From: Nitrospirota bacterium
GTDB lineage: Bacteria; Nitrospirota; Thermodesulfovibrionia; SZUA-242
DNA: 64,000 nucleotides
Reading direction: 5' to 3'
Assembly: GCA_003235715.1 (NCBI GenBank)
Contig: QJVM01000155.1
Coordinates: forward strand, 4,577-68,576
Shown piece after piece: positions 14,976 through 31,666 of this stretch (its first letter is position 1; the number at the start of each line of letters is the position of its first letter). Both the position numbers and the translations under genes were made by a program. The notes under the pieces were generated by a model, which was not told where the DNA came from, ran no database searches, and saw nothing but the letters and a program-made list of their open reading frames with translations.

Positions 14976-15019
14976 CCGTGAAAGACTGTCCGGAGATCGA
15001 GGGGAATGAAAAGGAACGC

Positions 15020-15802: not shown

Positions 15803-15818
15803 CCTCATCACGACGCAG

Positions 15819-15847
15819 TTGACAGACGCCAGGTTCCCATGTAAGCT
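15819..15847 (+). promoter_or_regulatory. candidate sigma70-type promoter at the 5' end of the long rho leader
   Basis: TTGACA (15819-15824), a 17-nt spacer, then TAAGCT (15842-15847). It is the only good -35 match in the 645-nt AT-richer gap upstream of rho. Confidence 0.35.
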
Positions 15848-16447
15848 AACGACAGTCGCACTTCCAGTTCAGACCGCACGTTACCCGTACTCCAGCAACG
15901 TTTTCTCTAGGTCAAACGAAACGCATCTCCATAAATTCCTTTTTGGCGTAGTAAGGTCCGTCATCGTTTGAAAACAAAATGAAACATTATGGAAGTCGGG
16001 TTCGGAGGGAGGCCGGGGAATTTTCGGTCGTTTAAAGTTCAAAAGCGCTATATCCGATACTTTAGGCATATCTGCATAACGGGTGATTCGAAGCGTCCGT
16101 GCTCCTCGGAATGCGAAGGAACGATCACCCTCCCAACAGGGTCATACCTGATTTCATACAGGTCGCACGAAACTCTATCTCCTTAACCAATACCGTCTCA
16201 CAGGATACGAACGAATCACGGCGTCCAGATAACGCGGACAGTTCGAAGGATTCAGACCTTTCTGGAACGAAGTTGGTGAACCAGACCATACCGGGGTGAC
16301 TGGGGGTTCCGGTCCGTTTCGGGACTTTCCCAAATCCTTGACCGTTTGGCCGCCGGATGGATTTTAGACATACGGGGTTCTGAGCTGTAACGCCCGCCTG
16401 TGCGGGACCATTTCCGAAGATTCAGACAGATGCAAGAGGTTGTGAAG

Positions 16448-17867: not shown

Positions 17868-18410
17868 TCATTTTCCGGACCCGGATTCCGGCTGAGTTCG
17901 TCTGTTCATGATCTTTTCCAGGGTATCCCGGTAGGTGGCCGTGGCGACGGCATCACCGGCCTTCATCGCCAGGTCGACGGCCTGACGGGACAGGTTCTCC
18001 GCCTCCTCAAGGTCTCCTCCCCGCTCCAGCATCAGCCAGGCCAGGTTATTCAGGGCTTCGGCACATTCGGGCTCCAAATCCAGTGCGACCCGGTAGTGTT
18101 GTTCCGCAGTGTCATACTTTCCTTTACCAAACCAGGCGTTGCCCAGGCACAGTTCGGCCCTGGCCCGGTGCTTGCCTCTCCGCGCCAACTCGTATTGGCC
18201 AATCGCGAGGTCCCACTCCCCTCTTTGTTCGTAGGCCGCACCCAGAGCGAGATGGTCCTCCGGGCCGAGGGGGTCCTCGATCACCCGGATGCTCGGTCCG
18301 GTACACGCGGCTCCGGGAAAGAGCAATACGGCCATCATCAATACCGAGAGGATTTTCAACGACCTTCTCCTGGGCTCAGAAACATGCCCCACCGACCCGT
18401 ACGTTCCCAT
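17868..18410 (-). CDS. secreted/lipoprotein TPR-repeat protein
   Basis: 180 aa with a signal peptide (RRRSLKILSVLMMAVLLFPGAAC) followed by 3-4 TPR units (ALGAAYEQRGEWDLAIGQYELA...AEALNNLAWLMLERG). Its 5' end overlaps the upstream C39-like gene by ~55 nt if ATG 18410 is the start. Confidence 0.65.
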   Translation of the reverse strand: MGTYGSVGHVSEPRRRSLKILSVLMMAVLLFPGAACTGPSIRVIEDPLGPEDHLALGAAYEQRGEWDLAIGQYELARRGKHRARAELCLGNAWFGKGKYDTAEQHYRVALDLEPECAEALNNLAWLMLERGGDLEEAENLSRQAVDLAMKAGDAVATATYRDTLEKIMNRRTQPESGSGK

Positions 18411-18958
18411 TTTCTCAGCAGACCAGGGTAATCCTCGTGGACGTCTTTCTTGTTTCCATCATGTACGAAGAGCCCGTTGTCATCAAAACCCGTAATTACC
18501 AGAAAGTGTCCCTGCCGCACGATCCAGAATCCTTCGTCCACGAGCAAGAGAACCGGGCGTCCCCCCCGGATTTCCTCCCGGACCGCTTCAAGGTCCAGAG
18601 CGCCCTGCTGCACGTTGTAGCCTTGATTCTTGGCAAACAGGTAAAGGTCCAGGGTCAGCGTTCCCCGGGCCTCGGAAGAGAAGACCGCCTCTGAGACGGC
18701 CTCCGGGGTGACCGGGTTTCCCCAGAAATTCAGAATGGAAGCTAGGGCCGCCGGGCCACATTGGTGGGCCGTCTGCTGGTGAAATGGAACCTTCAACAGG
18801 GTGAGGGAGGACTCCACGACTCCCGCAAAGGTCGGAGAGAGCACCAGAAATAATAGAAAACCGAAGAAACCTCTTTTCCGGCCACACCCCCGAAAAAACG
18901 CCGGGGCCCATAGGCCCCGGCCCGGTAAGAATTTCCGGGGTTGCAGGCCCCCGCACAT
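18356..18958 (-). CDS. C39-like (papain-fold) cysteine peptidase domain protein
   Basis: The motif QQTAHQCGPAALASILNFWG (Cys in a Q-C-G-P context) plus downstream His/Asp blocks (VITGFDDNGLFVHDG) match C39-like peptidase domains. The start is uncertain because a terminator-like hairpin lies 40 nt inside the ATG-18958 reading frame. Confidence 0.65.
   Translation of the reverse strand: MCGGLQPRKFLPGRGLWAPAFFRGCGRKRGFFGFLLFLVLSPTFAGVVESSLTLLKVPFHQQTAHQCGPAALASILNFWGNPVTPEAVSEAVFSSEARGTLTLDLYLFAKNQGYNVQQGALDLEAVREEIRGGRPVLLLVDEGFWIVRQGHFLVITGFDDNGLFVHDGNKKDVHEDYPGLLRKWERTGRWGMFLSPGEGR
18891..18920 (-). terminator. intrinsic-terminator-like hairpin (8-bp GC stem, 4-nt loop, T6) between the secretin/small-protein genes and the C39/TPR genes
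   Basis: On the - strand: ccggggcc-tatg-ggccccgg followed by cgttttttc. + strand coordinates 18901-18920 with the A-run at 18893-18898. Confidence 0.4.
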
Positions 18959-18963
18959 CGTCC

Positions 18964-19368
18964 CTACTCGATAATGACCTTATGCCCCGTAAGCTGGAGC
19001 AGGATGACCACCAGAATGGCAATGACCAGGATGGCGATGACCGCCCCAAGTGCCCCGTCGCCCCCCTTTTGAAGCAGGTCGAAGTTCGTGGCCATCTCAT
19101 GCAAGGTTGCGTCGTCGAGCTGGGCCAGGCGTTCCTCGACCTCGGCAGGGTTCAGGCCCAGGTCCTCCATCCTTTCCGTAACCACACGCGTTTCCAGGGC
19201 CTGCCTGATGCGCTCGAGGCTATCGCTCCGATCCGTTCCCTCGTCGCTGTAGAGCGTGGCAGAGGGGACAAATCCCGCAAACACATCGCCCGGAAAAGAG
19301 CCCACGATAAAAAGGGCTAGGGCAAGATACGAACCCATCAGGCGAAAATAAACTTTATCTCTGGCCAT
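18964..19368 (-). CDS. small bitopic membrane protein (N-terminal signal/TM, acidic middle, C-terminal TM)
   Basis: 134 aa. The N-terminus LMGSYLALALFIVGSFPGDVFA and the C-terminus GALGAVIAILVIAILVVILLQL are both hydrophobic. It sits 23 nt downstream of the secretin gene, and its stop is 5 nt before the C39 ATG. Confidence 0.5.
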   Translation of the reverse strand: MARDKVYFRLMGSYLALALFIVGSFPGDVFAGFVPSATLYSDEGTDRSDSLERIRQALETRVVTERMEDLGLNPAEVEERLAQLDDATLHEMATNFDLLQKGGDGALGAVIAILVIAILVVILLQLTGHKVIIE

Positions 19369-19391: not shown

Positions 19392-21347
19392 CTAGATATC
19401 TTCATGGTCAATGCGCTTTCGAATCAGGCGCACACGGTTGCGGTACTCTTCAGTGATAGCATCCGCTTCCTCGGAACCGGTCACGATATGAGGGGTCACT
19501 ATGATGAGGAGTTCCGTCCTGTCGCTCTTATCACTCGTCACGCCGAACAGGGCTCCCAGGTAAGGAATATCCGACAGGAAGGGGACCCCGCTGTGTGTCT
19601 TGTTCGCCACCTCCGAAATCAGTCCTCCGATGACCAGCGTATGGCCATCCTCGACAATCGCGGTCGTCTTGGCCTTGCGCGTATTGAAGACCGGGGAATT
19701 AATGCCCTCCACAAGAGCGTCGGCCACCGTGCTGATCTCCTGGGAAATCTTCAGGGTTACCATGTTCTTGGCATTGATCTGGGGCGTAACCTCGAGAATG
19801 GTTCCGGTGGTCCGATACTGGATCTGGCCCACCGTGGAGCCGGTGCTTGTATCCGTGGTCAGGTTGCCCGTGGCGGTGGGAACATCCCTACCCACCTCGA
19901 TCCGTGCCTCCTTCGAGTCGGTCGCAAGGATGGTCGGGCTCGAAAGAACCTTGAGCTGGTCTCTCTGGGCGTACAACCTAAGAAGAGCAGAAAACCGGCC
20001 TGCATCGAGAACCGCTGCAAAGGCCCCCGAGGAAGGAATAACCATTTCATTGACACTATCGATGCCACCCTGAACCATTCCTGTCGCCACATCCACCACG
20101 CGCCCCCCGACCTTGGCCGTATCCCTGAGAAGCCATTCGAGTCCGTACTCCTCTGCATCCGTCAGCGTCACTTCGGCCACCATCACGTCGATCAGGACCT
20201 GGCGCCTCGGCGTATCGAGTTTCTTCAGAGCGTCCACGATGGCCAGGTATTCCTTGGGCGTGGATTTGATGATAATGGCATTGATGTCCTCATAGGCCGT
20301 GATCACGACCTCCCCAAACGTCTCGCCGGATATTGTCGTGGGCGTCGTTGTTTCAGGCGTGGTCGTCTTTGCGGCCGCCTGTCGGGTGGCCAGGGCCCGA
20401 CGTCGTGCGGCCGCAAGCTGGGCCGCCCTGGAGGCGGCAGCGGTGGCGGCCGGCGTTGGCCTCTCCCCTGTGGTATCCGCGAAAATCTGCTTCAGAATCT
20501 CCACCAGAGACTTGGCCTCTCCATGCTCCACGTAATAGACAAACGTCCGGATGCCCTCGGATTCGGTCTCGGCCACATCGACGGCTTCCAAAATCTTCAT
20601 CAGGCGTCTCAGTGCATTGGGCCGGGCCGTAATGATGAGGAGATTTGTCGGCTCGTAAACCACGAGGTCCGCGCCACGGGGCAGGAGGTTCCGGAGTATC
20701 CCGGCCGCATCCGCCGCCTTCACGTTCTCGACCACCACGATCTGGGTCACAAACCCTGAATCGAGCTTCATCTCGATTTCCTTCCCCTTGCCAACCCCAA
20801 GCGGCATCCCCTTGGCCTGATCAATGGGAAGAATCGTGTAAAAGTGACCCTCCTGCACGGCGGTGAGATTGTTCATCTCGAGTATCGCCTGAAACACCGT
20901 AAAGAGGTCCTCGACCGGAAACTTGCTGTTGGACTGGATGGTGACGCTACCCGAGATGCCGGGCCCCAAAATGTAATTGATGCCCAGGATATCGCCCACG
21001 GTCTCGATGACCGTGTTGATATCGGCATTCTCGAAGTTCAGAATGATGTTCTTGGTGTCATCCGTCTCCTCTGTCGTGACCCTTCGCCGCCTCCGAGCCT
21101 CCTCCTGTTCAGCGGCCTGCCGGGCCGCCTCCTGCTCAGCAAGAAAAGGCTCGGGCAGCGCTTCCTCCGCAGCGGGCTCCCGCGAGGGCTCCTCGGCCGC
21201 CGGTTGAACGATAACGGGCTCGACCGCCTCCTTCGTGGAGGCACACCCTCCGGCCATGACCAGCCATGACAACGCCACAACCAGCAGGGCGAGAGCCGGC
21301 AGACGCCTATTGCTCAGTTCCATAAGAATTGGTCCTTGTTCTATCAT
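19392..21347 (-). CDS. gspD: secretin, type II secretion system GspD family (lipidated N-terminus)
   Basis: 651 aa with signal peptide plus lipobox (LVMAGGCAS), N0/N1-type domains (NIILNFENADINTVIETVGDILGINYIL), a Thr/Pro linker and a secretin C-domain (VPFLSDIPYLGALFG...ELLIIVTPHIV). Confidence 0.85.
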   Translation of the reverse strand: MIEQGPILMELSNRRLPALALLVVALSWLVMAGGCASTKEAVEPVIVQPAAEEPSREPAAEEALPEPFLAEQEAARQAAEQEEARRRRRVTTEETDDTKNIILNFENADINTVIETVGDILGINYILGPGISGSVTIQSNSKFPVEDLFTVFQAILEMNNLTAVQEGHFYTILPIDQAKGMPLGVGKGKEIEMKLDSGFVTQIVVVENVKAADAAGILRNLLPRGADLVVYEPTNLLIITARPNALRRLMKILEAVDVAETESEGIRTFVYYVEHGEAKSLVEILKQIFADTTGERPTPAATAAASRAAQLAAARRRALATRQAAAKTTTPETTTPTTISGETFGEVVITAYEDINAIIIKSTPKEYLAIVDALKKLDTPRRQVLIDVMVAEVTLTDAEEYGLEWLLRDTAKVGGRVVDVATGMVQGGIDSVNEMVIPSSGAFAAVLDAGRFSALLRLYAQRDQLKVLSSPTILATDSKEARIEVGRDVPTATGNLTTDTSTGSTVGQIQYRTTGTILEVTPQINAKNMVTLKISQEISTVADALVEGINSPVFNTRKAKTTAIVEDGHTLVIGGLISEVANKTHSGVPFLSDIPYLGALFGVTSDKSDRTELLIIVTPHIVTGSEEADAITEEYRNRVRLIRKRIDHEDI

Positions 21348-21898
21348 CGCCGGCGACGACTGGCGGGCCGGGAAGCTGGCTCCGCCGGTTCAGGCGTCTG
21401 GCCTCGAAGCTTGAGGTCCACGGGTTCACCCTTCCAGGTGAGCCGGGCCTCGAGAATCCCGATCTCCACCACTTCAAAGTTATCGAACATGTCTCCCACC
21501 CGGTAGGGCTGGGACCTCTCGTTATCCACCGAAATCAGGGCAATGCGCTCCCCGGACGGGTCCTCCAGAACCCCCTTGAGCATCACCGCCGGCATGGGCT
21601 CCGGAGGTGGGGGCGGTTCCTCCGGCATAACCACGACAGGTTCCACCGGCGGAGGCGGCGGGGGGGCCTTCACCACGCCGGTTCGGGTCGGGTGAAACAG
21701 GTTCCTTTCGAAAATATCCTTCCCCCCCGTGGCCCTGTACTCCGTGTCCGGCAGACCTCCAACAGACCGGGTGGCCGTCCCGACCGAACCGGCCGCATCA
21801 GCCACCGGATCGTACCCGGTCAGAATGGCCCGCACCGTAAACAAAGAATAGAGGAGAAGGCCCAACAAGACAAGCTCAAGTGCAACTTTACGTATCAT
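21344..21898 (-). CDS. GspC/PilP-like secretin-interacting protein (TM + poly-Pro + HR-type beta domain, no PDZ)
   Basis: 184 aa with an N-terminal TM (LELVLLGLLLYSLFTV), PPPPPP runs, and a C-terminal domain (VMLKGVLEDPSGERIALISVDNERSQPYRVGDMFDNFEVVEIG) resembling GspC-HR/PilP. It is overlap-coupled to gspD and to the gspM-like gene. Confidence 0.5.
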   Translation of the reverse strand: MIRKVALELVLLGLLLYSLFTVRAILTGYDPVADAAGSVGTATRSVGGLPDTEYRATGGKDIFERNLFHPTRTGVVKAPPPPPPVEPVVVMPEEPPPPPEPMPAVMLKGVLEDPSGERIALISVDNERSQPYRVGDMFDNFEVVEIGILEARLTWKGEPVDLKLRGQTPEPAEPASRPASRRRR

Positions 21899-22428
21899 AA
21901 CCGCATTATCCCGTGCACGGCAATTTTTATGTTCAGCGTTTCCGGGTCACGAACATTGGCCACAGAAACAGTAAGTTTGCTCACGTAAAGCCCCAGCCTT
22001 GACCGTTCAACCTTCCGGACAAAGTCTCTCAGGGAGGCTATTCTACCCCTGAACTCGAAGAGGAGCGGAACCTGGACAAAGTCCCCCCGTTCCAGAGGGG
22101 GCATGGGCTTCACCGTCTGAAGACTGAGACCCACGCCCTCAGCCATATCGCTCACCACCCGCTGCAGTTCAGCCGAGGCCAGCGCCGGTCCGGGGCTCGT
22201 CATAAACCGTTCCTCATACGATCTCAGTTCGTCATCGAGATCGGCCGCGAGACTCCCTAAGCCGTCGAACTGTTCGGACATGGACCGGTACTTGACGAGG
22301 AGCCGGTACCGGCTGAACAGTTCATCCTGCACGTTGACGTCATCGCTCCCAGGCCCGGCCACCAGGAGGTAGCCGATCACCACAACGCCCAAGGCCATCA
22401 CGAGAATCTTTCTTTTACTGACCTTCAT
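21895..22428 (-). CDS. GspM/PilO-like inner-membrane T2SS assembly protein
   Basis: Start at internal ATG 22428 (MKVSKRKILVMALGVVVIGYLLVA). It is bitopic with a ~150-aa periplasmic domain; the call rests on position between the gspL-like and gspC-like genes. Confidence 0.5.
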   Translation of the reverse strand: MKVSKRKILVMALGVVVIGYLLVAGPGSDDVNVQDELFSRYRLLVKYRSMSEQFDGLGSLAADLDDELRSYEERFMTSPGPALASAELQRVVSDMAEGVGLSLQTVKPMPPLERGDFVQVPLLFEFRGRIASLRDFVRKVERSRLGLYVSKLTVSVANVRDPETLNIKIAVHGIMRL

Positions 22429-23722
22429 GGCTGACCTGTTCCCAATACATTCGGATCGAAAAATGTTCTCCCATGGGCTGGACGATGACCGGGCCGGCCA
22501 TTTCCGCTCCAACAAACTGGTCCGATTCCTCCAGAAGTGCCAGGATTTCAGAGGAACGCGAGGAATAGCCGTCTATTTCGATCTTGCCCTTCTCGTCCAT
22601 ATCAAAGTTCACGAGCCACGTGTCCCGGGGCAGAATCCGGCTCAACTCCCCAAGAGCCACAAAAGGCCGATTCCGGTCAGCAAAGAACGGCCGGAGCACT
22701 TTAAGCGACCGGATCACGTTCTCGCGCTCCTTCAGCGGGCCCGAAGCCGAGTCAACGTTCTGGCGGAGCGTATTGAGTTCCTGGGTAACTTCGGCAAGCG
22801 CCCTCTCGTCGATTCGGGATTTCACCGTGACCTGAAAATAGAACGCGACCACCAGGAGACTCATGAGAAGCCCCAGAATAATATTGTGAGGATTCCGCTT
22901 GGTTCGGAAGGATTCCGGAAGAAGGTTCAGGAGGAAACTCCCCCGCGGGGTTTTCGTCCCGTCTCCTGGAAGCGTTTCTGCGACTTTTACGTTAATCCCC
23001 CTCAAGCTCGAGGCCGCCGTCCTGATCCCGGACTCGTTCCTTCCGTAAAACCAGACTTCCCTGCACCGGTGAAGCTCAGCCTCCCTTTCGATGGACTTCG
23101 CAATCATCACGGGATGGAGGTCCGGGTCAGGCGGAAGTTCGAGCGCTTTCAGATCCAGGGGTCTTCCGCCCTTGATCACGGCGAGGTCCGCCGTATCCTC
23201 CCCCATCCCCACCGAAAGAACGTCCGGGCCTGTCGCCTGCAGGGCATGGAACCGAAGGGCGCCCAGTTCAACGGAACGCACCACAATCTCCGCAGCCTGA
23301 AGGGCCTCGAGAAAGGGCGTGAGAAAGGAACGGGGGACTCCGGCTGCAAGGGCTTTGACCCCCTTTGCCCCGGACTCCAGAAAAGAGTAGGCCCAGTAGA
23401 AATTGTCCAGCGAAACCGGAAGCTTGCGCTCAAACTCAAAGGGGAGGGCCTTGCGGGCATCCGCGATCTTCATGGGCGGAAGTTCCAGAAGCGAAACCAC
23501 CGTCCGGTCAAGGGGCAACTCCAGAAGGACCCACTCCACCTTGCGTTCCTTGAGAAATCCGGTAAGCAGAAGGGGCGCCGGCTTATCTCCGGCCGCCTCA
23601 CCGCCCTGTTCCGGCCGGATGACTCCTCTTCCGCGGTCAGGCGCCCCCAGGGCTTCCTTGTCCGTCAGAACATAGGGAAACGCCGCCCCATCCAGCCTGA
23701 CGATGGCCCCTCGCTTAGACAT
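22415..23722 (-). CDS. GspL-like T2SS protein (cytoplasmic actin-like domain + TM + periplasmic domain)
   Basis: Start at ATG 23722 (MSKRGAIVRLDGAAF). It has a ~240-aa cytoplasmic part, a single TM (NIILGLLMSLLVVAFYFQV) and a ~140-aa periplasmic domain, matching GspL (or a PilM+PilN-like) architecture. Confidence 0.6.
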   Translation of the reverse strand: MSKRGAIVRLDGAAFPYVLTDKEALGAPDRGRGVIRPEQGGEAAGDKPAPLLLTGFLKERKVEWVLLELPLDRTVVSLLELPPMKIADARKALPFEFERKLPVSLDNFYWAYSFLESGAKGVKALAAGVPRSFLTPFLEALQAAEIVVRSVELGALRFHALQATGPDVLSVGMGEDTADLAVIKGGRPLDLKALELPPDPDLHPVMIAKSIEREAELHRCREVWFYGRNESGIRTAASSLRGINVKVAETLPGDGTKTPRGSFLLNLLPESFRTKRNPHNIILGLLMSLLVVAFYFQVTVKSRIDERALAEVTQELNTLRQNVDSASGPLKERENVIRSLKVLRPFFADRNRPFVALGELSRILPRDTWLVNFDMDEKGKIEIDGYSSRSSEILALLEESDQFVGAEMAGPVIVQPMGEHFSIRMYWEQVSHEGQ

Positions 23723-24671
23723 CGTCCCTCCACTGGAGCACGCGAACCTTGTAACCCGCCCCGTGGGGTTCCCGGCGAACAAAGGCCTCCAGGGATCTCG
23801 TATACTCTGTCCCCGCCGGTTTGGCGGAAGCCGCGATCCGGAAGCAATCCGAAGCCGTGGCGGTTATCCCCACTTTCCGGGCCGAGGCGGGGACCACCAG
23901 CACGGGGCCATTGGCCCGTTGCAGGAGGATGCTTTCGATATCGGTGTAGGGGACGCCGAGCAGGCTCATGGTTTCCGCCGAAACGGTATTCACGTTCATG
24001 CCGGTCTGAGGACAAATGCTCAGATGCCCGTAAATCCCCGTCAGTTCCCGCTCTGGATTTCCGAAGAGCACGTCGATGTCCATTCCCTTGACCATGAGAA
24101 GTTCGTCAATCGTGCTGAAAGGACCGTTCTTGGCCACGTACCCTTCGGACTCATAATGGTCTGTCTCGGCGCCGTTCAAAAGCCTCTCGTCATCCGGATC
24201 CCGCCAGTCCAGTATCGAATCGGCCAATTCATCGGCAGCTTTATCCTCCACACCACTTCGGAGGAGGAGGTCCATGATGGCATTGCGGGAAGCCGTATTG
24301 AGGTTCAGTTTGGCACTCTCATCGTTGATCCGGACGTCCACGGTTCCAAAATCCAGTTCCCGGTGCCCCTCAAAGGCTTCCCCCTCGGTTTCAACCACCA
24401 GTCGGCCTTCAGGGTCCTCGAAATCCACGCTCCGGTCGGGGTCGTTCATCAGAAACCGGACCGCATCTTCGTAAGCCGCAACAGCTTCATAATAGGCTTC
24501 GGCATCCTCCTTGAAATTGCGCACGCTGGTCAGCCCGGTTCGCATGCTGAGGGCAAAGGTCGCGCCGATAATCGCAAGCAACACCACGACCCAGAGGGTC
24601 ATCAGAAGGGCGATCCCTCTCGGTGTTCCCGCCACCCGCGACCATAAGGAATGGGTGCCCTTTGGGCTCAT
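23715..24671 (-). CDS. gspK: T2SS minor pseudopilin GspK-like
   Basis: 318 aa. The N-terminus RGIALLMTLWVVVLLAIIGATFA is the GspK-type pseudopilin segment, and the large periplasmic domain contains a GspK-like helix-hairpin-helix region (NLNTAS...LL). Confidence 0.65.
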   Translation of the reverse strand: MSPKGTHSLWSRVAGTPRGIALLMTLWVVVLLAIIGATFALSMRTGLTSVRNFKEDAEAYYEAVAAYEDAVRFLMNDPDRSVDFEDPEGRLVVETEGEAFEGHRELDFGTVDVRINDESAKLNLNTASRNAIMDLLLRSGVEDKAADELADSILDWRDPDDERLLNGAETDHYESEGYVAKNGPFSTIDELLMVKGMDIDVLFGNPERELTGIYGHLSICPQTGMNVNTVSAETMSLLGVPYTDIESILLQRANGPVLVVPASARKVGITATASDCFRIAASAKPAGTEYTRSLEAFVRREPHGAGYKVRVLQWRDDV

Positions 24672-24686
24672 CGCGTCCTTCGGGGC

Positions 24687-26369
24687 CTAGGTGACCCGAA
24701 GGACCTCCTCCAACGTGGTGATACCTTCATAAGCCTTGTTGAGACCATCCTCGTACAGGGTTTTCATTCCCTGTTCCATCGCATAGGTCCGGATCCGGTT
24801 TGATGTGGCATTCTCCATGATCAGAAGCCGCAGGTTGTCATCCACCCGGAGAAACTCATAGATCCCTATTCTCCCCCTGTATCCCGAGCCGTTGCATTCC
24901 GGACAGCCGGCCCCCCGGTGAAGCACCTCGACTTTCCGGCCAAAGATCTGGTCCGCATCCTTGCCCGGTTCATAAGGAGTGCGGCAGGAACCGCAAATTC
25001 TTCGTACCAGGCGCTGCGCCATAACCCCAACGAGGGTCGAGGATACAAGAAAATTCTCTACGCCCATGTCCAAAAGACGCGTGATCGCCCCCGGGGCGTC
25101 GTTGGTATGCAGCGTGCTGAAGAGGAAATGACCGGTCAAGGCGGAATGAACCGCGATCCCCGCCGTCTCGAGATCTCGGATTTCGCCGACCATGATGATG
25201 TCCGGGTCCTGCCGAACGATGTGCCGGAGTCCGGTGGCAAAGGACAGACCGATCTTGGGGCGCACCTGGATCTGGTTGATACCCGACATCTGGTATTCGA
25301 CGGGTTCTTCGATGGTAATGATCTTCTTGTCCGGTGAGTTCAGTTTGTCCAGGGAGGCATACAGCGTCGTCGTCTTGCCGCTTCCGGTCGGTCCCGTAAT
25401 CAGGAACATGCCGTAGGGAAGTTCGATAAGCTCTTCGTAATGTCTCTTGAGATCGCCGCTGAACCCGAGGTCCTCGAGTGAATAAAAGGCCGAAGACTTG
25501 TCAAGCACACGCATGACCACGCTCTCGCCATGAACCGTGGGAAGGGTGGAGACGCGGAGGTCCACTTCCCGCCCTCCGTAGACCCCCTTGATCCGTCCAT
25601 CCTGGGGCAGTCGCCTCTCGGCAATGTTCATCTGGGCCATGAGTTTCACGCGAGACGACAAAGCCGCCTGCATGCGTTTGGGAAAGGTCTGAGATTCATG
25701 AAGGATACCGTCAATCCGATACCGAACCCGGAAGACCCCCTCAAACGGTTCCAGGTGAATGTCGCTGCACCGGTCATTGACCGCATTCTCGATGATCACA
25801 TTGACCAGTTGAATGATGCCCCTGTCCTGGGCCAGGTCCTTGAGCTGGCTGACCTCGCCCGACTCCGGAATCGGACCTCCCGTTCGATCCTCTTCCTCCT
25901 CTTCCTCCACCACGTCCATGATTCGCTTCATAACGGCCCCGCGGGAACCGTAGAGCGATTCAAGAGAGTCCAGGATGTCTTCTTCAAGCCCGACAAATAT
26001 CTCCAGCCGGCGGCCAAGGGACGTCTTCAGGTTGCTGAGGGCCACACGATTCCCGGGGTCGGCCACCACCACCGTGAACACGTCGGCCGTCATCTTCACA
26101 GGAAAGATTCGATTCTCCCTCAGGAAGTCAAAGGAAATGGGATGGTCCACGAACGCGTCCTTCGGAAACTTCTCGGAAGTGAGGTACGGATACCCTGTAT
26201 GACGACTGATGGCCTTGAGAAGGTCTTCCTTGGACAGCCCGAACTCAAGAAGAATCTCGCCCACCCGCCGCGGAGGTTCCTCGGTTTGCTGGATTTCCAG
26301 CACATGGTCGACCTGCTCTCGCGAAGCGAGACCCAGTTCCACCAGAATGTCACCAAAATGGGTCGCCAA
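24687..26369 (-). CDS. gspE: T2SS/T4P-family secretion ATPase GspE (N-terminal GSPII_E_N/MshEN domain)
   Basis: 560 aa with Walker A (GPTGSGKTTTLYA), Asp and His boxes, a tetra-Cys Zn motif (CGSC...CPEC) and an MshEN-type N-domain (ILVELGLASREQVDHVLEIQQ). Confidence 0.9.
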   Translation of the reverse strand: MATHFGDILVELGLASREQVDHVLEIQQTEEPPRRVGEILLEFGLSKEDLLKAISRHTGYPYLTSEKFPKDAFVDHPISFDFLRENRIFPVKMTADVFTVVVADPGNRVALSNLKTSLGRRLEIFVGLEEDILDSLESLYGSRGAVMKRIMDVVEEEEEEDRTGGPIPESGEVSQLKDLAQDRGIIQLVNVIIENAVNDRCSDIHLEPFEGVFRVRYRIDGILHESQTFPKRMQAALSSRVKLMAQMNIAERRLPQDGRIKGVYGGREVDLRVSTLPTVHGESVVMRVLDKSSAFYSLEDLGFSGDLKRHYEELIELPYGMFLITGPTGSGKTTTLYASLDKLNSPDKKIITIEEPVEYQMSGINQIQVRPKIGLSFATGLRHIVRQDPDIIMVGEIRDLETAGIAVHSALTGHFLFSTLHTNDAPGAITRLLDMGVENFLVSSTLVGVMAQRLVRRICGSCRTPYEPGKDADQIFGRKVEVLHRGAGCPECNGSGYRGRIGIYEFLRVDDNLRLLIMENATSNRIRTYAMEQGMKTLYEDGLNKAYEGITTLEEVLRVT

Positions 26370-26378: not shown

Positions 26379-27911
26379 TCACTTTCCGGAAAATCCGGAA
26401 AACGTACCCAGCATGTATTTCAGGTCCTCGTCCTCGAGACGGATGCCGCCACCCAGGAACAGACCGCTCGAATGCGCATTCAGCGCATTATCCCAGCCCG
26501 CGACCAGAATCAGATGATTCCAGAGCGCATACTGCGCTCCAACCTTGAGGTGGGGGTTCTCAGCCTGAGGTTCATTTTCCTTGAAATCCCAGATATCTGC
26601 AAATAAGGACAGTCTGTCGTCAAAAAGATGGTAGGCCGTCCCGAAACCAAAGGTGTTTTCCATGAGCCCGGCCCGAAACTCCAGGTCATGATAACTTCTT
26701 GACAACAAAGCCGTAAATTCGAAGTTTTCCCGGGTGGTTTCCTGGACGGTGGTGGTCGAAACGCCGTCGACCGTGGTCACGGTCCTCTTTTTCCGCGTGT
26801 ATCCGAGGGGGTCGCTCACAACGCCGATGAGATAATACCGGTCCGGCGCCGGCTGGAACCGAATATTCAAATACCCCTTGGTCTCGCCGATGCGGGTGAG
26901 GCTCTCGCCCTGGAAGTCCACAAACGTCCGGAAGCGCCGTATCCGGCCGAGTTCGGCATCGATCCCTTCAGCCGCTTTGGTCACGGACTCATACAGGCGG
27001 TCATCGGTGACGAGCTTTCCGAGCGTTCCCTCGCCCTTCTCCACCTTGTCCGTCATGCGATTCAGGGACTCCATGGCCTGTCCGGCCTGAACGGACAGTT
27101 TCTCGAGTGATTTGGCGCCTTCAATGGCAGGCTGTCGCATCTCTGAAATGAGGACCCTCAGGTCTCCGGCGGCGGCCGTGATCTGCTCCAGGGCCATGGG
27201 GGCCTCCCGGTTCAGATAGTCCGTAAGCTCGTTAAGTCCCGTCAAGGTCTTCGAAACCGAGGGACCCTCGCGGTCGATCAACCCCTGGACGGAAGCCGTC
27301 ACCTCCGTCAGGCTGTCCAGCAAGCGCCGAAGTTTTTCGTCGTTCACCGCCACCGCATCATTCAGATGCTCCGTGATCGAGCGCATATTCTTGGCGCTCT
27401 CTGCAATGGCCTGGGTGGTTTCCTCGTCCCCGAGCACGCGGCCCACCGCTTCCGCGATATCCGCGAATCTCGAGGCCATGGACGAAAGATTGGCCACGAG
27501 GGCATCGTAATTGGTGGGCTGAACCGTATGGACAACCGTATCTCCGTCCTTGAGCGCGGGGGTCCTCTCGGTTCCGGTTTCCAGCGCCACGTACTTGTCC
27601 CCCAGCAGCCCGAGCGACTGTATCGAAGCCACCGCATCTTCATGAACCAGAACGCCGGGATCCAGACGGAGAACGACCCGGGCCCTTCCTTCCTGAAGCT
27701 GAACCTCTTCCACAATTCCCGCATTCACCCCGGCCACCTTTACCCGCGTATCCCTTTCCACTCCCACGATACTGTCGAAGAAGGCATAAAGGACGTAGCC
27801 TTCCTTCTCCTTGAACTTAAGTCCTCCAACCTGCAGGGTCATGAAGGAGAGAATCAGGATGACCAGGACGGCAAACAGGCCCACCTTAAGCTCGGGAGAA
27901 AGCACTTTCAT
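26379..27911 (-). CDS. mlaD: MlaD/MCE-domain protein with a ~330-aa C-terminal extension (coiled-coil plus beta-rich domain)
   Basis: 510 aa with an N-terminal TM (VGLFAVLVILILSFMTL), a canonical MCE domain (YAFFDSIVGVERDTRVKVAGVNAGIVEEVQL...SLGLLGDKYVALETG), then heptad-like helical sequence and a C-terminal domain with alternating hydrophobic strands. A typical MlaD is ~160-190 aa. Confidence 0.8.
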   Translation of the reverse strand: MKVLSPELKVGLFAVLVILILSFMTLQVGGLKFKEKEGYVLYAFFDSIVGVERDTRVKVAGVNAGIVEEVQLQEGRARVVLRLDPGVLVHEDAVASIQSLGLLGDKYVALETGTERTPALKDGDTVVHTVQPTNYDALVANLSSMASRFADIAEAVGRVLGDEETTQAIAESAKNMRSITEHLNDAVAVNDEKLRRLLDSLTEVTASVQGLIDREGPSVSKTLTGLNELTDYLNREAPMALEQITAAAGDLRVLISEMRQPAIEGAKSLEKLSVQAGQAMESLNRMTDKVEKGEGTLGKLVTDDRLYESVTKAAEGIDAELGRIRRFRTFVDFQGESLTRIGETKGYLNIRFQPAPDRYYLIGVVSDPLGYTRKKRTVTTVDGVSTTTVQETTRENFEFTALLSRSYHDLEFRAGLMENTFGFGTAYHLFDDRLSLFADIWDFKENEPQAENPHLKVGAQYALWNHLILVAGWDNALNAHSSGLFLGGGIRLEDEDLKYMLGTFSGFSGK

Positions 27912-28666
27912 GCATATCCTCCTTCAACGCGAATGGGGCCCTCGGCCCGGCCAGCCACGAATTGACTCACCACCGGACTGGAGGTCTTACGGATTTCCTC
28001 CGGGGTTCCGACTTCGATGATTCTTCCGGAATACAGCATCGCGATCCGATCCGCAATTTTAAATGCACTCGTCATATCGTGCGTAATGGTCACCGAAGTT
28101 ACGCTGAGCCGTTCCCGGAGCGAGAGGATGAGATCATTGATGATGTCCGCCATGATGGGGTCCAGACCCGTTGTGGGCTCATCATAAAGGATACACTCCG
28201 GCTCGGTGGCAATGGCACGCGCCAGTCCGACCCGCTTCCGCATACCCCCTGACAGGTCGGCCGGCATGACGTCTTCGATTCCGCTCAGGCCCACCATACG
28301 GAGTTTCTCTGAAGCAATGCGCCGAACCTCCCGCGGCTTGAGCGAGGTATGTTGTCTCAGGGCAAAGCCCACATTCTCCCAGACGCTCATGGAATCAAAC
28401 AGGGCCGCGCCCTGAAAAAGCATACCCATCCGTCTTCGAAGATCATTGAGCCCGTGCTCGTCCAAACCGGAAATGTCGCTTCCGTCAATAAGAACCCGGC
28501 CGCCATCCGGCCGGAGGAGCCGAATGATGTGCTTGAGAAGCACGCTCTTTCCGGAACCGCTCCCGCCGATGACCACCATGCTTTCGCCCCGCTTGACTTC
28601 CAGGTCCACGCCGTCCAGGACCGCCTTGTCCCCGAAGGATTTGGTGAGTCCCTCGATCCGGATCAC
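27908..28666 (-). CDS. mlaF: ABC transporter ATP-binding protein MlaF
   Basis: The start was reassigned to GTG at 28666-28664, preceded by AGGAGG with a 9-nt spacer; the ORF-track start would overlap mlaE. Walker A (GGSGSGKS), LSGGM signature and Walker B (ILYDEPT) are present. Confidence 0.85.
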   Translation of the reverse strand: MIRIEGLTKSFGDKAVLDGVDLEVKRGESMVVIGGSGSGKSVLLKHIIRLLRPDGGRVLIDGSDISGLDEHGLNDLRRRMGMLFQGAALFDSMSVWENVGFALRQHTSLKPREVRRIASEKLRMVGLSGIEDVMPADLSGGMRKRVGLARAIATEPECILYDEPTTGLDPIMADIINDLILSLRERLSVTSVTITHDMTSAFKIADRIAMLYSGRIIEVGTPEEIRKTSSPVVSQFVAGRAEGPIRVEGGYA

Positions 28667-28679
28667 CTTCGAACCCCTC

Positions 28680-29480
28680 CTATTGAAACAGCCAGGACGA
28701 TAGGAAATAGTCCGATATGAGAACCGCCATGGAAGCCATGACGACCGCCCGGGTGGTGGCCCGGCCCACGCCCGCCGCCCCGCCCTCGGAGTGGTACCCC
28801 TGGTAGCAGGAGATGAGCGCAATGGCGCCCCCGAAGAAAATCGCCTTGTAGAGCCCGTGGTAGATGTCGGTGATGGTCAGATAGTCCCACGTTCGGTTCA
28901 GATAGAGCGTCGGATTGGCCCCCAGAACCCGCGTGCTCACGAAATATCCTCCCAGGATCCCCACGGCATCCGAAAAAACGGTAAGGGCCGGAAGCATGAC
29001 GATCCCCGAAAGAAATCGAGGAACCACAAGATACTGGACGGGGTTTGTGGCCAGGGTCTCGAGGGCATCGATCTGCTCCGTCACCCGCATGGTTCCCAGT
29101 TCAGCAGCCATGGCCGCCCCGGCTCGCCCGGAAACAATAAGGCCGGTCAGCACCGGTCCGAGTTCCCGGGTCATGGAAAGGGCCACGACCGAACCCACGA
29201 GGCCCTCGGCCCCAAACCGCTTGAACCCGATGTAGCTCTGGAGCGCGAGTACGGCACCCGTAAAGGCCGCCGTAATGAGAACCACAGGCAGCGAATTCAC
29301 ACCAATCTCCACCAGTTGGCGGAAGAGATTCCTCAAATTATAAGGCGGCGCGAACACGAGCCGGAGGGTTTTGGCAAGCATGATGACCAGGCCTCCGGCC
29401 AGCGAGAGAGGCCTCATCAGGATGGCTCCCAGATATTCTACGGGCCGGAGGAGAGCAGGCGTCGACGCCTCAGCCCTCAT
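28680..29480 (-). CDS. mlaE: ABC transporter permease MlaE
   Basis: 266 aa with the MlaE/Ttg2B permease pattern (LVEIGVNSLPVVLITAAFTGAVLALQS...TEQIDALETLA). Confidence 0.85.
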   Translation of the reverse strand: MRAEASTPALLRPVEYLGAILMRPLSLAGGLVIMLAKTLRLVFAPPYNLRNLFRQLVEIGVNSLPVVLITAAFTGAVLALQSYIGFKRFGAEGLVGSVVALSMTRELGPVLTGLIVSGRAGAAMAAELGTMRVTEQIDALETLATNPVQYLVVPRFLSGIVMLPALTVFSDAVGILGGYFVSTRVLGANPTLYLNRTWDYLTITDIYHGLYKAIFFGGAIALISCYQGYHSEGGAAGVGRATTRAVVMASMAVLISDYFLSSWLFQ

Positions 29481-30577
29481 GGTAAACCCTCCGAACGCGC
29501 CGACCCACAGAAGTGAGAATCTCGTAGGGAATCGTACCGGCGAGTTCGGCGACCCGATCCGCCCAGAGTTTCGTATTCTCGCTTTCGCCGATGAGAATCG
29601 CTTCGTCTCCCACCTGGACCGGCCCTGCCTCGGTCACGTCCACCATGGTCAGGTCCATGCAGACCCGGCCCACCACCGGCACCTCGGTACCCCCGACGAG
29701 AACCCGGCCCTTGTTCGATAGCGCGCGGGAAAACCCGTCCGCATATCCCACACTGAGGGTGGCGATGAGGCTTTCCCGAGATGTCCGGTACGTACGGCCA
29801 TAACTGATGGGGGTTCCCGGCGAAACGCGCTTGATGGCGATCACCCGCGTGGACACTCTCATCGCCGGCCGCAGCCCAGCCTCCTCGAGGGCAGGAGCGG
29901 GGTTATATCCGAAGAGCATGAGCCCCGGCCGGACCATATCAAAATGAGCAGTTGGAAAACGGATGACCGCCGCGCTGTTGGCCATATGTTTGAGCGGGAT
30001 GGAAACGCCTTCCTTCGCGAGGCCTTCCGAAACCCTGGTGAAAACGCCTACCTGATCTTGAACGACGGCCGGGTTTTCGAGTTCCGCATCCGAAAAATGA
30101 CTCGACAGGCCCTCCACTGCTATTCCCGGCAGACCGCTGATCTGCAGGATGGTCCCCACGGCGGCCTCCGGAAGCAGTCCGACCCGCCCCATCCCTGTGT
30201 CCAGTTTGATATGAACCGGGATCCTCCGTCCTGTCCGCGATGCCTCGGCCGAAAGAACTTCCGCCTGGGGCACGCTCCAGATCACAGGGGTCAGGTTGTG
30301 GTGAACAACCTCGGCGACGGCAGACGGTTCCAGCCCGAAGAGAAGAACCAAAGGGCATGAAAGCCCGGCGTTGCGAAGCTCAAGCGCCTCTTCGAGGTGA
30401 GCCACGCCGAGCGCTTCGGCGCCGGCCGCGAGGAGGGTTCGGGAAACGGGAACAGCCCCGTGCCCGTAAGCATCGGCCTTTACGATCGCGAGGATCTTGC
30501 AGTTTCCAGCCCGGGAGCGGACGACACCAAGATTGTGGCGTATGGCCCCCAGGTCAATATGAGCCTCCAGGTAACTC
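29470..30577 (-). CDS. alr: alanine racemase (the start codon is non-canonical or unresolved)
   Basis: The conserved N-terminus IDLGAIRHNL...AIVKADAYGHG (PLP-Lys) lies upstream of the ORF-track start, which is actually a GTG at 30405. The in-frame region back to the TAA at 30586-30588 contains no ATG/GTG/TTG, only CTG and ATT. The C-terminal half is clearly Alr (VPVVGRVCMDLTMVDVT). Confidence 0.8.
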
Positions 30578-30806
30578 AGACGGTCTTACCTTCGTCGTTC
30601 TCTTCCTTCTTTTCCTCAACCTTCTTTTCCTCAACCTTGTCGCGCGGAGGCGATACATCAATCTCATCGTGGGAAACCGATTTCTTGAAATTCTTCATGG
30701 CCTCGCCGATACCCCGTCCGAGTTCGGGAAGGCGCTTCCCCCCGAAAATCACGATGACAATGATAAGGATGATGATGAGTTCCGTGGCTCCCAAACCGCC
30801 GATCAT
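30576..30806 (-). CDS. tatA: twin-arginine translocase subunit TatA/E
   Basis: 76 aa. [42 protein letters not shown] is the TatA TM-plus-amphipathic-helix signature, followed by an acidic/Lys-rich tail. Confidence 0.8.
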
Positions 30807-31053
30807 AGGCCTTCGCCTCCCTTGGGAAAGGTGGGATACGACGGGCAGGCAACCCGCAACCCATAGACCTCAGGCCTGCCCCGAATCCGTGAGAAAAAGA
30901 ACACCTAAACTTTACTTTGGGCATGCTTTTTTGTCAATCTTTGATCCGGAAAATCCAACGGTTTATTAAGTACTTAACAAGTCCACTCGTGGGAGGGTTG
31001 CCCTTGACTCCCCTTCGGTCTCCCCACGAACGGAACCCCTGGGGGGGAGAGGA

Positions 31054-31666
31054 AAGAGGATTCGTGCCCTATATAGGCCTGACCGGGGTTTTTGGGAGCG
31101 GGAAGTCGACCGTGCTCGGCCTTCTGGCCTCTCTTGGAGCCTGCTGCATCGATGCTGACGGATTGGTGCGGGCCATCACCGATTCGGACGAAGCCGTTCG
31201 AAGGGAAATTGCCCGACGGGTCGGCCCCTCAGCTCTGGATCAGGACGGGAACCTGGACCGGAAGGAAGTGGCCCGGATTGTATTTTCGGACGAACACAAA
31301 CGCGCTGACCTGGAGGCCCTGCTTCACCCCTATGTTTTTGCCGAGTCGGAGAGGCTAAAGGACGCGGCGTACCGTGCGGACCCGCACCGGGTGGTGGTGC
31401 TCGAGGCTCCTCTTCTGTTTGAGGCGGGTTACGACCGCATGATGGACGCCACCCTTGTGGTCACCTGCCCCATGGAGACCATTTTCACACGCCTCGTCAG
31501 CCGCGGATTTTCAAAAGCCGAGGTCCTGACCCGGCTTCGCTCCCAGATGAGCCAGACCGAAAAGGCGGACCGGGCCCGGTATCGGGTGGACAATGGGGGA
31601 AGTCTGGAAGATACAGAGGTCCAGGTCAGAGCAGTCTATGAAAGGATCCGGACCGGAAGGGGATAA
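31054..31666 (+). CDS. coaE: dephospho-CoA kinase
   Basis: Start at GTG 31054 (an AGAGGA RBS is upstream). The P-loop is IGLTGVFGSGKST, and the CoaE pattern includes HPYVF and LLFEAG. Confidence 0.75.

What the first reader, a model, noticed from the sequence alone, without database searches (positions are those of the whole stretch)
19392..26369. T2SS-like cluster without platform protein or pseudopilins
gspE (ATPase), gspK (minor pseudopilin), gspL, gspM, a PDZ-less gspC/PilP-like gene and a lipidated gspD secretin are all present. No gspF, gspG, gspH/I/J, gspN or prepilin peptidase occurs in the 64 kb window. GspK normally caps a GspI/J/K tip complex, so its presence without I and J is odd. 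The secretin has a lipobox (GGCAS), so it may be self-piloting.
Basis: partly seen in the sequence, partly recalled or inferred. Interest (0 to 1): 0.5.

Follow-up and report, generated by a model that had tools for sequence, protein, structure and literature searches.

The report
Split type II secretion operon
This is a real, intact half of a bacterial type II protein-secretion machine (motor, tip subunit, inner-membrane scaffold and outer-membrane pore); the genes for its membrane platform and filament are missing from this locus in a whole lineage, most likely because they lie elsewhere in the genome.

Summary
Window 19392-26369 (minus strand) carries six tightly packed genes, gspE-gspK-gspL-gspM-gspC-gspD. 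The 64 kb window has no gspF, gspG/H/I/J or prepilin peptidase; the rest is housekeeping. The genes are T2SS-type, not type IV pilus: GspE and GspD pass NCBIfam's curated cut-offs, the GspK model matches only GspK/XcpX structures, and GspM sits at the XpsM cut-off. The small PDZ-less protein is the normal GspC of this T2SS family.

The missing genes are not an accident of one genome. At least 13 related loci from Nitrospirota- or Thermodesulfobacteriota-labelled MAGs, including a closed 2.29 Mb genome, lack F-J. About 120 more distant relatives fetched here keep J directly upstream of K, mostly as E-F-G-H-I-J-K-L-M-(C)-D. The loci without F-J form one exclusive clade in the E, K and D trees. 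They are intact and under purifying selection, and all have a lipidated secretin.

Within the clade, gspE and gspKLMCD also occur apart. The likeliest reading is therefore an ordinary multi-locus T2SS with F, G-J and the peptidase supplied in trans. I could not find those genes: two GspJ-based searches returned only canonical operons. Genuine loss remains possible (about 0.15).

The parts
24687..26369 (-). gspE, T2SS assembly ATPase (560 aa, TTG start). It has an N-terminal extension of about 77 aa carrying an MshEN-like motif.
   Evidence: PF00437 E=2e-135 and PF05157. TIGR02533 GspE scores 641.8 bits (cut-off 630.25), whereas PilB TIGR02538 scores 577 against a cut-off of 675. It is 49% identical to GspE of the complete Nitronauta operon. 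dN/dS is 0.05 against an 87%-identical relative.
23715..24671 (-). gspK, minor (tip) pseudopilin (318 aa). It starts 15 nt after the gspE stop.
   Evidence: PF21687 E=5e-14. NF037980 aligns residues 18-302 with model positions 2-298 of 307 at E=1e-26, below cut-off. AlphaFold pLDDT is 85. The four significant Foldseek PDB hits are 9a1f_T, 3ci0_K, 5vtm_X and 6utu_F, all GspK/XcpX. pN is 0.11 and pS 0.76 against an 83%-identical relative.
22415..23722 (-). gspL-like assembly-platform protein (435 aa from the ATG at 23722). It is a PilM-like cytoplasmic domain, one TM segment and a PilN-like periplasmic domain in a single polypeptide. It overlaps the end of gspK by 8 nt.
   Evidence: PF05137 PilN E=3e-7 at residues 377-444, and weak T2SSL. 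The 435-aa gene call comes from the identical contig L001. The clade profile A6 hits PilM 2ych (3e-15), PilM 3jc8, PilN (2e-4) and GspL 4pht (0.04).
21895..22428 (-). gspM (XpsM type, 177 aa from the ATG at 22428). It overlaps gspL by 14 nt.
   Evidence: PF10741 T2SSM_b E=2e-9. NF040576 T2SS_GspM_XpsM scores 61.4 bits against a cut-off of 60, and all 13 clade orthologues match it. The nearest solved sequences are PilO.
21344..21898 (-). gspC (184 aa): TM segment, NLF-x-P-x-R motif, proline-rich linker and HR (PilP-like) domain, with no PDZ. There is a 4-nt overlap with gspM and with gspD.
   Evidence: NF041515 GspC_delta E=9e-10, matching model positions 40-179 of 311, below cut-off. Clade profile A4 has GspC HR domain 2lnv as its best PDB hit, E=0.03. 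Five of 13 orthologues hit PF11356. hhalign against the protein between gspM and gspD in complete operons gives probability 99.5%, E=4e-22.
19392..21347 (-). gspD, a lipidated secretin (651 aa) with N0, N1-type repeats and a secretin domain. The signal peptide ends ...VMAGG|C.
   Evidence: PF00263, PF03958 and PF21305. TIGR02517 scores 420.8 bits (cut-off 351), whereas PilQ scores 184 against a cut-off of 284. The lipobox Cys is present in 12 of 12 clade secretins.
26379..30806 (-). Upstream genes on the same strand, tightly packed with gspE: tatA (30576-30806), alr (29470-30405), mlaE (28680-29480), mlaF (27908-28822) and a 510-aa MlaD-like protein (26379-27911, 9 nt before gspE). They are probably co-transcribed with the gsp genes.
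   Evidence: Pfam and NCBIfam hits. The same order appears in L005, L010, L012, L015, L090 and L092. The best promoter-like site is at 30937-30909, which is not statistically meaningful.
17868..19368 (-). Downstream genes on the same strand: a PA2779-family/DUF6627 protein (18964-19368), a PA2778-like C39 cysteine peptidase (18356-18958) and a TPR lipoprotein-like protein (17868-18410). They are linked to gspD only in the window's subclade.
   Evidence: NF033919 scores 76.6 bits, above cut-off; NF033920 is partial; TPR families also hit. The same trio follows gspD in L005, L007 and L010 but not in the other loci without F-J. A terminator-like hairpin lies at 18921-18900.

Best explanation
The region is the gspE-gspK-gspL-gspM-gspC-gspD part of a genuine type II secretion system. 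It belongs to the T2SS family found in Nitrospirota, Nitrospinota and 'delta-proteobacterial' lineages: XpsM-type GspM, a PilM-PilN-like GspL and a short PDZ-less GspC.

In the ancestor of this clade the contiguous gspF-G-H-I-J block left the operon, leaving gspE abutting gspK. The remaining genes have been kept intact ever since.

Proposed mechanism (inferred):
- The lipidated GspD is sorted to the outer membrane through its own lipid anchor and forms the pore.
- GspC docks the pore to the GspL-GspM inner-membrane scaffold through its HR domain.
- GspL recruits the GspE ATPase.
- GspK caps a pseudopilus whose other subunits (GspG, H, I, J), together with the platform protein GspF and a prepilin peptidase, are encoded at one or more other loci and act in trans. 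This is how the scattered T2SS genes of Acinetobacter or Legionella work.

What is shown: gene identities, the single-origin conserved gene order, purifying selection, and the fact that gspE and gspKLMCD can be unlinked within the clade.

What is inferred: that F, G-J and O exist elsewhere, and that the machine secretes proteins.
For: Family assignments:
- GspE and GspD score above NCBIfam equivalog cut-offs, and PilB/PilQ score below theirs.
- The GspK model matches only GspK/XcpX structures.
- GspM matches the XpsM model in 13 of 13 orthologues.
- GspC is homologous to the protein in the same position in complete operons, hhalign 99.5%.

Census of gene order:
- Of the first 89 loci examined, the 13 closest lack F-J: window, L005, L006, L010, L012-L016 and L022 (E-K-L-M-C-D), plus L007 and L011 (K-L-M-C-D). 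L090, L091 and L092 added later also lack them.
- About 65 more distant loci carry E-F-G-H-I-J-K-L-M-(C)-D or permutations of it.

Single origin and retention:
- The loci without F-J form one exclusive clade in NJ trees of E (12 of 48), K (13 of 86) and D (12 of 46).
- All genes are intact down to 35% GspK identity.
- dN/dS is 0.05 for E and 0.21 for L. For K, pN/pS is 0.15.

Unlinked modules and labile gene order:
- L092 has mlaD-gspE with no K-D.
- L007 and L011 have K-L-M-C-D with no E.
- L149 has F-G-H-I-J-K-L-M-D with no E.
- Complete operons occur in several circular permutations.

Precedent: the functional Acinetobacter T2SS is encoded in five distant loci and shares PilD with type IV pili (PMC9952577).
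Against: - The missing genes were not found.
- A protein search with GspJ of the nearest complete operon gave 145 hits. None lay on the closed 2.29 Mb genome of a clade member or on any other contig of the clade.
- A metagenome scan with a GspJ profile gave 52 loci. In every one with enough downstream sequence, J is followed by K.
- Two further GspJ groups that I looked up also sit in loci where J is followed by K.
- No second GspK locus from the same MAGs appeared among the 80 best genome hits.

These searches are insensitive. The GspJ search also missed the Nitronauta GspJ, which BLAST does detect. No tool could query a whole genome.
Confidence: 0.66

Rival explanations
1. Reduced or hybrid machine. 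The clade really has lost its dedicated gspF and gspG-J. The E-K-L-M-C-D set then works with the platform protein, pilins and peptidase of a type IV pilus system encoded elsewhere, or with a very divergent replacement set. GspK would be the only T2SS-specific pseudopilin.
For: - No orphan F-G-H-I-J operon and no GspJ from any clade genome was found in two searches.
- The closed clade genome gave no GspJ hit.
- L and M are closer in sequence to PilM/PilN/PilO than to proteobacterial GspL/GspM.
- From my own knowledge: prepilin peptidases are shared between systems, and minor pseudopilins and minor pilins can cross-prime assembly.
Against: - GspK is strongly conserved (22 invariant columns across 30 sequences) and under purifying selection. 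Its only known role is in a GspI-J-K tip complex.
- The PilM/N/O-like character of L and M is shared with the complete sister operons, so it is not a clade-specific shift.
- The searches that failed were of low sensitivity.
- No type IV filament system without its own platform protein is known.
Confidence: 0.15
2. Decaying remnant. The cluster is what is left of a T2SS after deletion of F-J, and it is no longer functional.
For: A T2SS cannot work without GspF and GspG, and neither is at the locus.
Against: - All six genes are intact in every one of the 11 loci that carry the full E-K-L-M-C-D cluster, spanning GspK identities from 35% to 100%.
- The gene overlaps are compact and suggest translational coupling.
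- dN/dS is 0.05-0.2.
- The lipobox is conserved in 12 of 12 secretins.
- The single-origin clade is deep.
Confidence: 0.03
3. The cluster is a type IV pilus PilM/N/O/P/Q alignment-and-secretin module mislabelled as T2SS.
For: Profiles of L and M hit PilM, PilN and PilO structures best. PF05137 PilN and, weakly, PF04350 PilO also hit.
Against: - The secretin passes the GspD cut-off and fails the PilQ cut-off. The ATPase passes GspE and fails PilB.
- A GspK is present.
- M matches the XpsM-type GspM model in 13 of 13 orthologues.
- L is a single fused polypeptide, as GspL is.
- Sister loci carry T2SSG, GspH and T2SSJ genes in the same operon.
Confidence: 0.02

Closest known systems
Canonical single-operon T2SS (Gsp/Pul/Eps/Xcp; here the Xps-like version in Nitrospinota and Nitrospirota, e.g. 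Candidatus Nitronauta litoralis CP048685.1, locus L008)
   Same: E, K, L, M, C and D are orthologous: E is 49%, K 31% and D about 31% identical to the Nitronauta proteins. The relative order of K-L-M-(C)-D is the same, GspM is the same XpsM type, and GspC is the same short PDZ-less form.
   Different: The five contiguous genes gspF-G-H-I-J that lie between E and K in the canonical operon are absent from this locus and from every locus of its clade.
Multi-locus T2SS of Acinetobacter baumannii (five scattered loci, PilD shared with type IV pili; PMC9952577) and, from my own knowledge, Legionella pneumophila Lsp
   Same: A T2SS whose parts are encoded in separate loci and act in trans. The prepilin peptidase is not in the gsp locus.
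   Different: The way the genes are divided differs: here E sits with K-L-M-C-D. The partner loci have not been located here, whereas in Acinetobacter all 12 genes are mapped and shown to function.
Liposecretins such as HxcQ of Pseudomonas aeruginosa (my own knowledge, not tested here)
   Same: The secretin has an N-terminal signal peptide ending in a lipobox cysteine, and no pilotin gene is recognisable next to it. The Cys is conserved in 12 of 12 clade members.
   Different: Self-piloting is inferred only from the lipobox. The Hxc system has a complete gene set at one locus.
Type IVa pilus PilM-PilN-PilO-PilP-PilQ module
   Same: The architecture is homologous: actin-like PilM plus PilN corresponds to GspL, PilO to GspM, PilP to the GspC HR domain, followed by a secretin. 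L and M profiles hit PilM/N/O structures best.
   Different: PilM and PilN are fused into one protein. The secretin and ATPase score as GspD and GspE, not PilQ and PilB. A GspK is present, and the sister operons are complete T2SS operons.

Membership tests
Type II secretion system (T2SS) | GspE-type assembly ATPase | tested here: met
   TIGR02533 scores 641.8 bits, at or above its cut-off of 630.25. PilB TIGR02538 scores 577.5, below its cut-off of 675.65.
Type II secretion system (T2SS) | GspD-type secretin with an N0 domain | tested here: met
   TIGR02517 scores 420.8 bits, at or above its cut-off of 351.35. PF21305 N0, PF03958 and PF00263 all hit.
Type II secretion system (T2SS) | Assembly-platform proteins GspL, GspM and GspC | tested here: met
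   GspM: NF040576 at its cut-off, matched by 13 of 13 orthologues. GspC: below curated cut-offs, but hhalign gives 99.5% against the GspC-position protein of complete operons, and the best PDB hit is GspC HR domain 2lnv. GspL: a fused PilM-like plus PilN-like protein, with only a weak direct GspL hit.
Type II secretion system (T2SS) | Minor pseudopilin GspK | tested here: met
   PF21687 hits. The AlphaFold model has four significant PDB matches, all GspK/XcpX, with TM-scores 0.56-0.73.
Type II secretion system (T2SS) | Polytopic platform protein GspF | tested here: not met
   Absent from the 64 kb window (tblastn; Pfam) and from about 10 kb on either side in 13 related loci. The rest of the genome could not be searched.
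Type II secretion system (T2SS) | [quoted passage not shown] | tested here: not met
   No prepilin signal motif in any of the six frames of the window and no tblastn hit. None was flagged in the clade loci. The rest of the genome could not be searched.
Type II secretion system (T2SS) | Prepilin peptidase (GspO/PilD), which is often encoded elsewhere and shared | tested here: not met
   No Peptidase_A24 family member among the window ORFs scanned. In known systems the peptidase is commonly outside the gsp locus (PMC9952577).
Type II secretion system (T2SS) | Secretes folded periplasmic proteins across the outer membrane | not testable with these tools
   This needs genetics and secretome analysis.
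Type IVa pilus PilMNOPQ module | PilQ-type secretin and PilB-type ATPase, with separate PilM and PilN | tested here: not met
   PilQ TIGR02515 scores 183.7 bits, below its cut-off of 284. PilB is also below its cut-off. PilM-like and PilN-like parts are fused in one 435-aa protein.
Liposecretin (self-piloted secretin) | N-terminal lipobox cysteine on the secretin | tested here: met
   The window secretin reads ...VMAGG|CAS. A signal peptide followed by Cys is present in 12 of 12 clade secretins. Lipidation and pilotin independence themselves are not testable here.

The most novel reading that the evidence does not exclude
The whole clade, including a closed 2.29 Mb genome, has no dedicated gspF, gspG, gspH, gspI or gspJ anywhere. 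A conserved GspE-K-L-M-C-D set would then operate as a reduced T2SS-derived machine. It would either borrow the platform protein and pilins of a type IV pilus system or use GspK in a role independent of the I-J-K tip complex.
Probability: 0.13. Interest if true: 0.75.

Novelty: new member of a known kind. Interest (0 to 1): 0.3.

Why it matters
If the missing genes are elsewhere, as I expect, this is a tidy but ordinary example of a multi-locus T2SS in poorly studied, uncultured lineages. It has two practical uses. Annotation pipelines that require gspF and gspG at the same locus will miss or down-rank this system. The clade also gives a natural experiment on which T2SS genes must stay linked: K-L-M-C-D always stay together, E usually does, and F-J do not.

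If the genes are truly absent from the genomes, this would be the first type IV filament-family machine without its own platform protein and major subunit. That would bear directly on how modular and interchangeable T2SS and type IV pilus parts are.

Tried and rejected
- Prepilin-motif regex in six frames, and tblastn with Nitronauta F/G/H/I/J against the window: nothing.
- Viewing the source contig beyond the window (81,625 bp, of which 64,000 are in the window): look-ups with window proteins returned only short contigs from the same population.
- Finding F-J in the closed clade genome CP070669.1 by using the 'longest_contig' column as a fingerprint. A GspJ search from the nearest complete operon (L018) gave 145 hits, none from that genome or from other clade contigs. 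Sensitivity is low, so this is not evidence of absence.
- Metagenome scan for orphan F-G-H-I-J operons. The first GspJ alignment was too diverse to give patterns. The second gave 52 loci, all canonical where readable.
- Look-ups of GspJ groups not represented in my loci (P0307, P0338): in both, J is followed by K, though L149 lacks gspE.
- P0045 (213 kb contig): the locus is fragmented into many short ORFs and is uninformative.
- Matching protein accessions through cluster membership to link proteins to the same MAG: accessions were too sparse.
- Literature search for the closed genome's accession: no paper.
- L016's hit to GspG turned out to be a membrane protein of more than 485 aa with a C-terminal GspG-like globular domain and no class III signal. 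It is not a pseudopilin and is not conserved in the clade.
- The type IV pilus reassignment and the 'decaying remnant' reading were considered and rejected; the reasons are under the rival explanations.

Full report
**Observation**

Six ORFs lie head to tail on the minus strand between 19392 and 26369:

| ORF | aa |
|---|---|
| 24687-26369 | 560 |
| 23715-24671 | 318 |
| 22415-23782 | 455; 435 from the ATG at 23722 |
| 21895-22515 | 206; 177 from the ATG at 22428 |
| 21344-21898 | 184 |
| 19392-21347 | 651 |

The shorter starts for the third and fourth genes are those called on an identical metagenome contig. Spacing is operon-like. There are 15 nt between the first two genes, then overlaps of 8, 14, 4 and 4 nt.

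Pfam and NCBIfam identify the products:
- GspE: TIGR02533, 641.8 bits, above its cut-off. PilB is below its cut-off.
- GspK: PF21687; NF037980 aligned over its full length, E=1e-26, below cut-off.
- A PilN-domain protein with a weak GspL signal.
- GspM of the XpsM type: NF040576, at its cut-off.
- A weak GspC: NF041515, N-terminal 140 positions only, so no PDZ.
- GspD: TIGR02517, 420.8 bits, above its cut-off. PilQ is below its cut-off.

The secretin precursor reads ...LVMAGG|CAS, which is a lipobox.

**Absence of the other parts from the window**

- A six-frame search for the class III (prepilin) signal motif found nothing.
- tblastn with GspF, G, H, I and J from a complete related operon gave no hit better than E=0.02. 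GspE, K, L, M and D of that same operon all hit the cluster.
- A Pfam scan of the other long ORFs found only housekeeping functions, plus three ORFs with no hit. These include RecJ, SecDF, LptFG, NamZ, Rho, TatA, Alr, MlaEFD, CoaE, sugar-nucleotide and LPS genes, DapA/DapF/LysA, Dxs, HrcA-GrpE-DnaK-DnaJ and M16 peptidases.

**Strengthening the weak assignments**

- GspK. An AlphaFold model built from a 30-sequence alignment (pLDDT 85, pTM 0.75) has exactly four significant PDB matches. All are GspK/XcpX: the XcpGHIJK filament model, the ETEC GspI-J-K complex and two XcpVWX complexes.
- GspC.
  - A profile of 13 orthologues has the GspC HR domain (2lnv) as its best PDB sequence hit, though only at E=0.03.
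  - Five of the 13 orthologues hit PF11356.
  - A profile-profile comparison with the protein between gspM and gspD in complete operons gives 99.5% probability, E=4e-22. It covers the TM segment, a conserved NLF-x-P-x-R motif and the HR domain.
  - The short PDZ-less GspC is therefore the normal GspC of this T2SS family and not a peculiarity of this locus.
- GspM. All 13 orthologues match the XpsM-type GspM model.
- GspL.
  - Its profile hits PilM (E=3e-15) and PilN structures better than proteobacterial GspL (E=0.04).
  - The GspM profile likewise hits PilO.
  - This PilM/N/O flavour is shared by the L and M of the complete sister operons, which carry PF11104 and PF05137.
  - The PilM-like and PilN-like parts are fused in one protein, which is the GspL architecture.

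Together with the E, D and K scores, this rejects reassignment to a type IV pilus PilMNOPQ module.

**Comparative context**

The closest GspK homologues come from MAGs labelled Thermodesulfobacteriota or Nitrospirota. I fetched loci around GspK relatives from metagenome assemblies and from one genome per GTDB species. I then classified every ORF by BLAST against the window proteins and a complete Nitronauta operon, and by a prepilin-motif test.

The result is clean:
- The loci closest to the window (L005, L006, L010, L012-L016, L022) have gspE-K-L-M-C-D with nothing between E and K. So do L090 and L091, added later.
- L007 and L011 have K-L-M-C-D without E.
- About 65 more distant loci have E-F-G-H-I-J-K-L-M-(C)-D or a permutation of it.

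L090 is part of a closed 2.29 Mb Nitrospirota genome, CP070669.1.

Identity to the window's secretin separates the two groups without overlap: 41-64% against 38% or less. In neighbour-joining trees of E, K and D, all loci without F-J form a single exclusive clade: 12 of 48, 13 of 86 and 12 of 46 sequences respectively.

So F-J left the operon once, in the ancestor of this clade. The six remaining genes have stayed intact while GspK diverged to 35% identity.

Against an 83-87% identical relative:
- dN/dS is 0.05 for gspE.
- dN/dS is 0.21 for the start of gspL.
- For gspK, pN/pS is 0.15, with synonymous sites saturated.

The lipobox cysteine of the secretin is present in all 12 clade members examined. 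A decaying remnant is therefore very unlikely.

**Evidence that the system is modular in this clade**

- L092 keeps tatA-alr-mlaE-mlaF-mlaD-gspE, but the next gene is a rubrerythrin on the other strand, with no K-D.
- L007 and L011 keep K-L-M-C-D with unrelated genes upstream.
- Outside the clade, L149 has F-G-H-I-J-K-L-M-D without E.
- Complete operons occur as E...D, D-E...C, H...D-E-F-G and G-D-E-F-H...C.

The parts of this T2SS family are thus repeatedly re-cut and evidently work in trans. Functional T2SSs spread over several loci are established. The Acinetobacter system is encoded in five distant loci and shares PilD with type IV pili (PMC9952577). Legionella Lsp is similar, from my own knowledge. 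Denise et al. 2019 (PMC6668835) describe how the genetic organisation of type IV filament systems varies between single and multiple loci.

**The unresolved point: where are F, G, H, I and J?**

No tool could query a whole genome, so I tried indirect routes:
- A protein search with GspJ of the nearest complete operon returned 145 hits. None lay on the closed clade genome or on any other clade contig.
- A metagenome scan with a GspJ globular-domain profile returned 52 loci. In all of those with readable downstream sequence, J is followed by K.
- Two GspJ groups not represented in my loci were looked up, and in both J is followed by K.
- No second GspK locus from the same MAGs appeared among the 80 best genome hits.

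These are weak negatives. The word-indexed GspJ search also failed to list the Nitronauta GspJ, which BLAST detects at 65 bits. The 17.6 kb of the source contig outside the window could not be read.

**Verdict**

The most likely explanation (about 0.66) is an ordinary multi-locus T2SS:
- This operon supplies the ATPase, the tip pseudopilin, the L-M-C scaffold and a self-targeting liposecretin.
- GspF, GspG-J and the prepilin peptidase are encoded elsewhere.

The strong conservation of GspK argues for partners existing, because its only known role is in the GspI-J-K tip complex.

The main rival (about 0.15) is that the clade has truly lost its dedicated F-J and uses type IV pilus components or a very divergent set. 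That would be remarkable, and it is directly testable on CP070669.1.

As it stands, the finding is a correct observation of a clade-specific T2SS gene order that, to my knowledge, has not been described. It is of modest interest.

Noticed in passing
window 26379-30806 (minus strand); also L005, L010, L012, L015, L090, L092: gspE sits 9 nt downstream of a 510-aa MlaD-like protein, preceded by mlaF, mlaE, alr and tatA. In precomputed Pfam hits on the orthologues this protein carries the MCE domain plus the 'Helical_needle' and 'Aq_493_lipo' families. The mlaD-gspE junction is conserved across the clade and persists in L092 even where gspK-D are gone, so gspE is at least as tightly linked to the Mla-like operon as to the other gsp genes.
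   Followed up: partly
window 17868-19368 (minus strand); L005, L007, L010: A PA2779-family/DUF6627 protein follows gspD, then a PA2778-like C39 cysteine peptidase and a separate TPR protein. The PA2779-family protein has a signal peptide, a KGGDG motif and a C-terminal hydrophobic tail. The TPR protein matches the C-terminal part of the PA2778 model and, weakly, the PilW/Tgl pilotin-type TPR lipoproteins. The trio follows gspD only in the window's subclade. Its function and any link to the T2SS are unknown.
   Followed up: partly
window 18900-18921 (minus strand): A strong terminator-like hairpin (9 G-C pairs followed by a T-run) lies 43 nt after the PA2779-family stop codon, inside the first 20 codons of the longest C39 ORF. 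Either the peptidase starts further downstream, or this marks the 3' end or an attenuator of the long operon.
   Followed up: no
window 26202-26369 (GspE residues 1-56): The GspE N-terminus carries two MshEN-like repeats (FGDILVELGLASREQVDHVLEIQ and RVGEILLEFGLSKEDLLKAIS). It matches the MshE-related c-di-GMP-binding motif model NF053729 at 31 bits, below its cut-off of 38. The ATPase may be regulated by c-di-GMP.
   Followed up: no
L016 9-1466: About 7 kb upstream of gspE in one clade member lies a polytopic membrane protein of more than 485 aa. Its C-terminal 110 residues resemble the globular domain of GspG (DPWNKPY..., 63 bits to Nitronauta GspG), but it has no class III signal. It was not seen in the other clade loci.
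   Followed up: partly
L149 (CDLSJW010000229.1) and L094/L111: There are other re-cut versions of the same T2SS family. L149 has gspF-G-H-I-J-K-L-M-D without gspE, directly downstream of type IV pilus minor-pilin genes (pilW, pilX, pilY1). L094 and L111 have the order H-I-J-K-L-M-C-D-E-F-G.
   Followed up: partly
window 57777-59279 (plus strand): A single 500-aa ORF combines a TatD-type DNase domain (residues 49-298) with a radical-SAM domain (residues 319-481). This may be a genuine fusion, or two genes merged by the ORF caller.
   Followed up: no
window 1-16000 and 31000-38700: The neighbourhood is unusually rich in cell-envelope biogenesis genes: secDF, lptF/lptG, namZ, an NTP-transferase/kinase fusion, mlaEFD, alr, tatA, and sugar-nucleotide, glycosyltransferase and hldE-like genes. 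This may simply reflect the organisation of the core genome.
   Followed up: no
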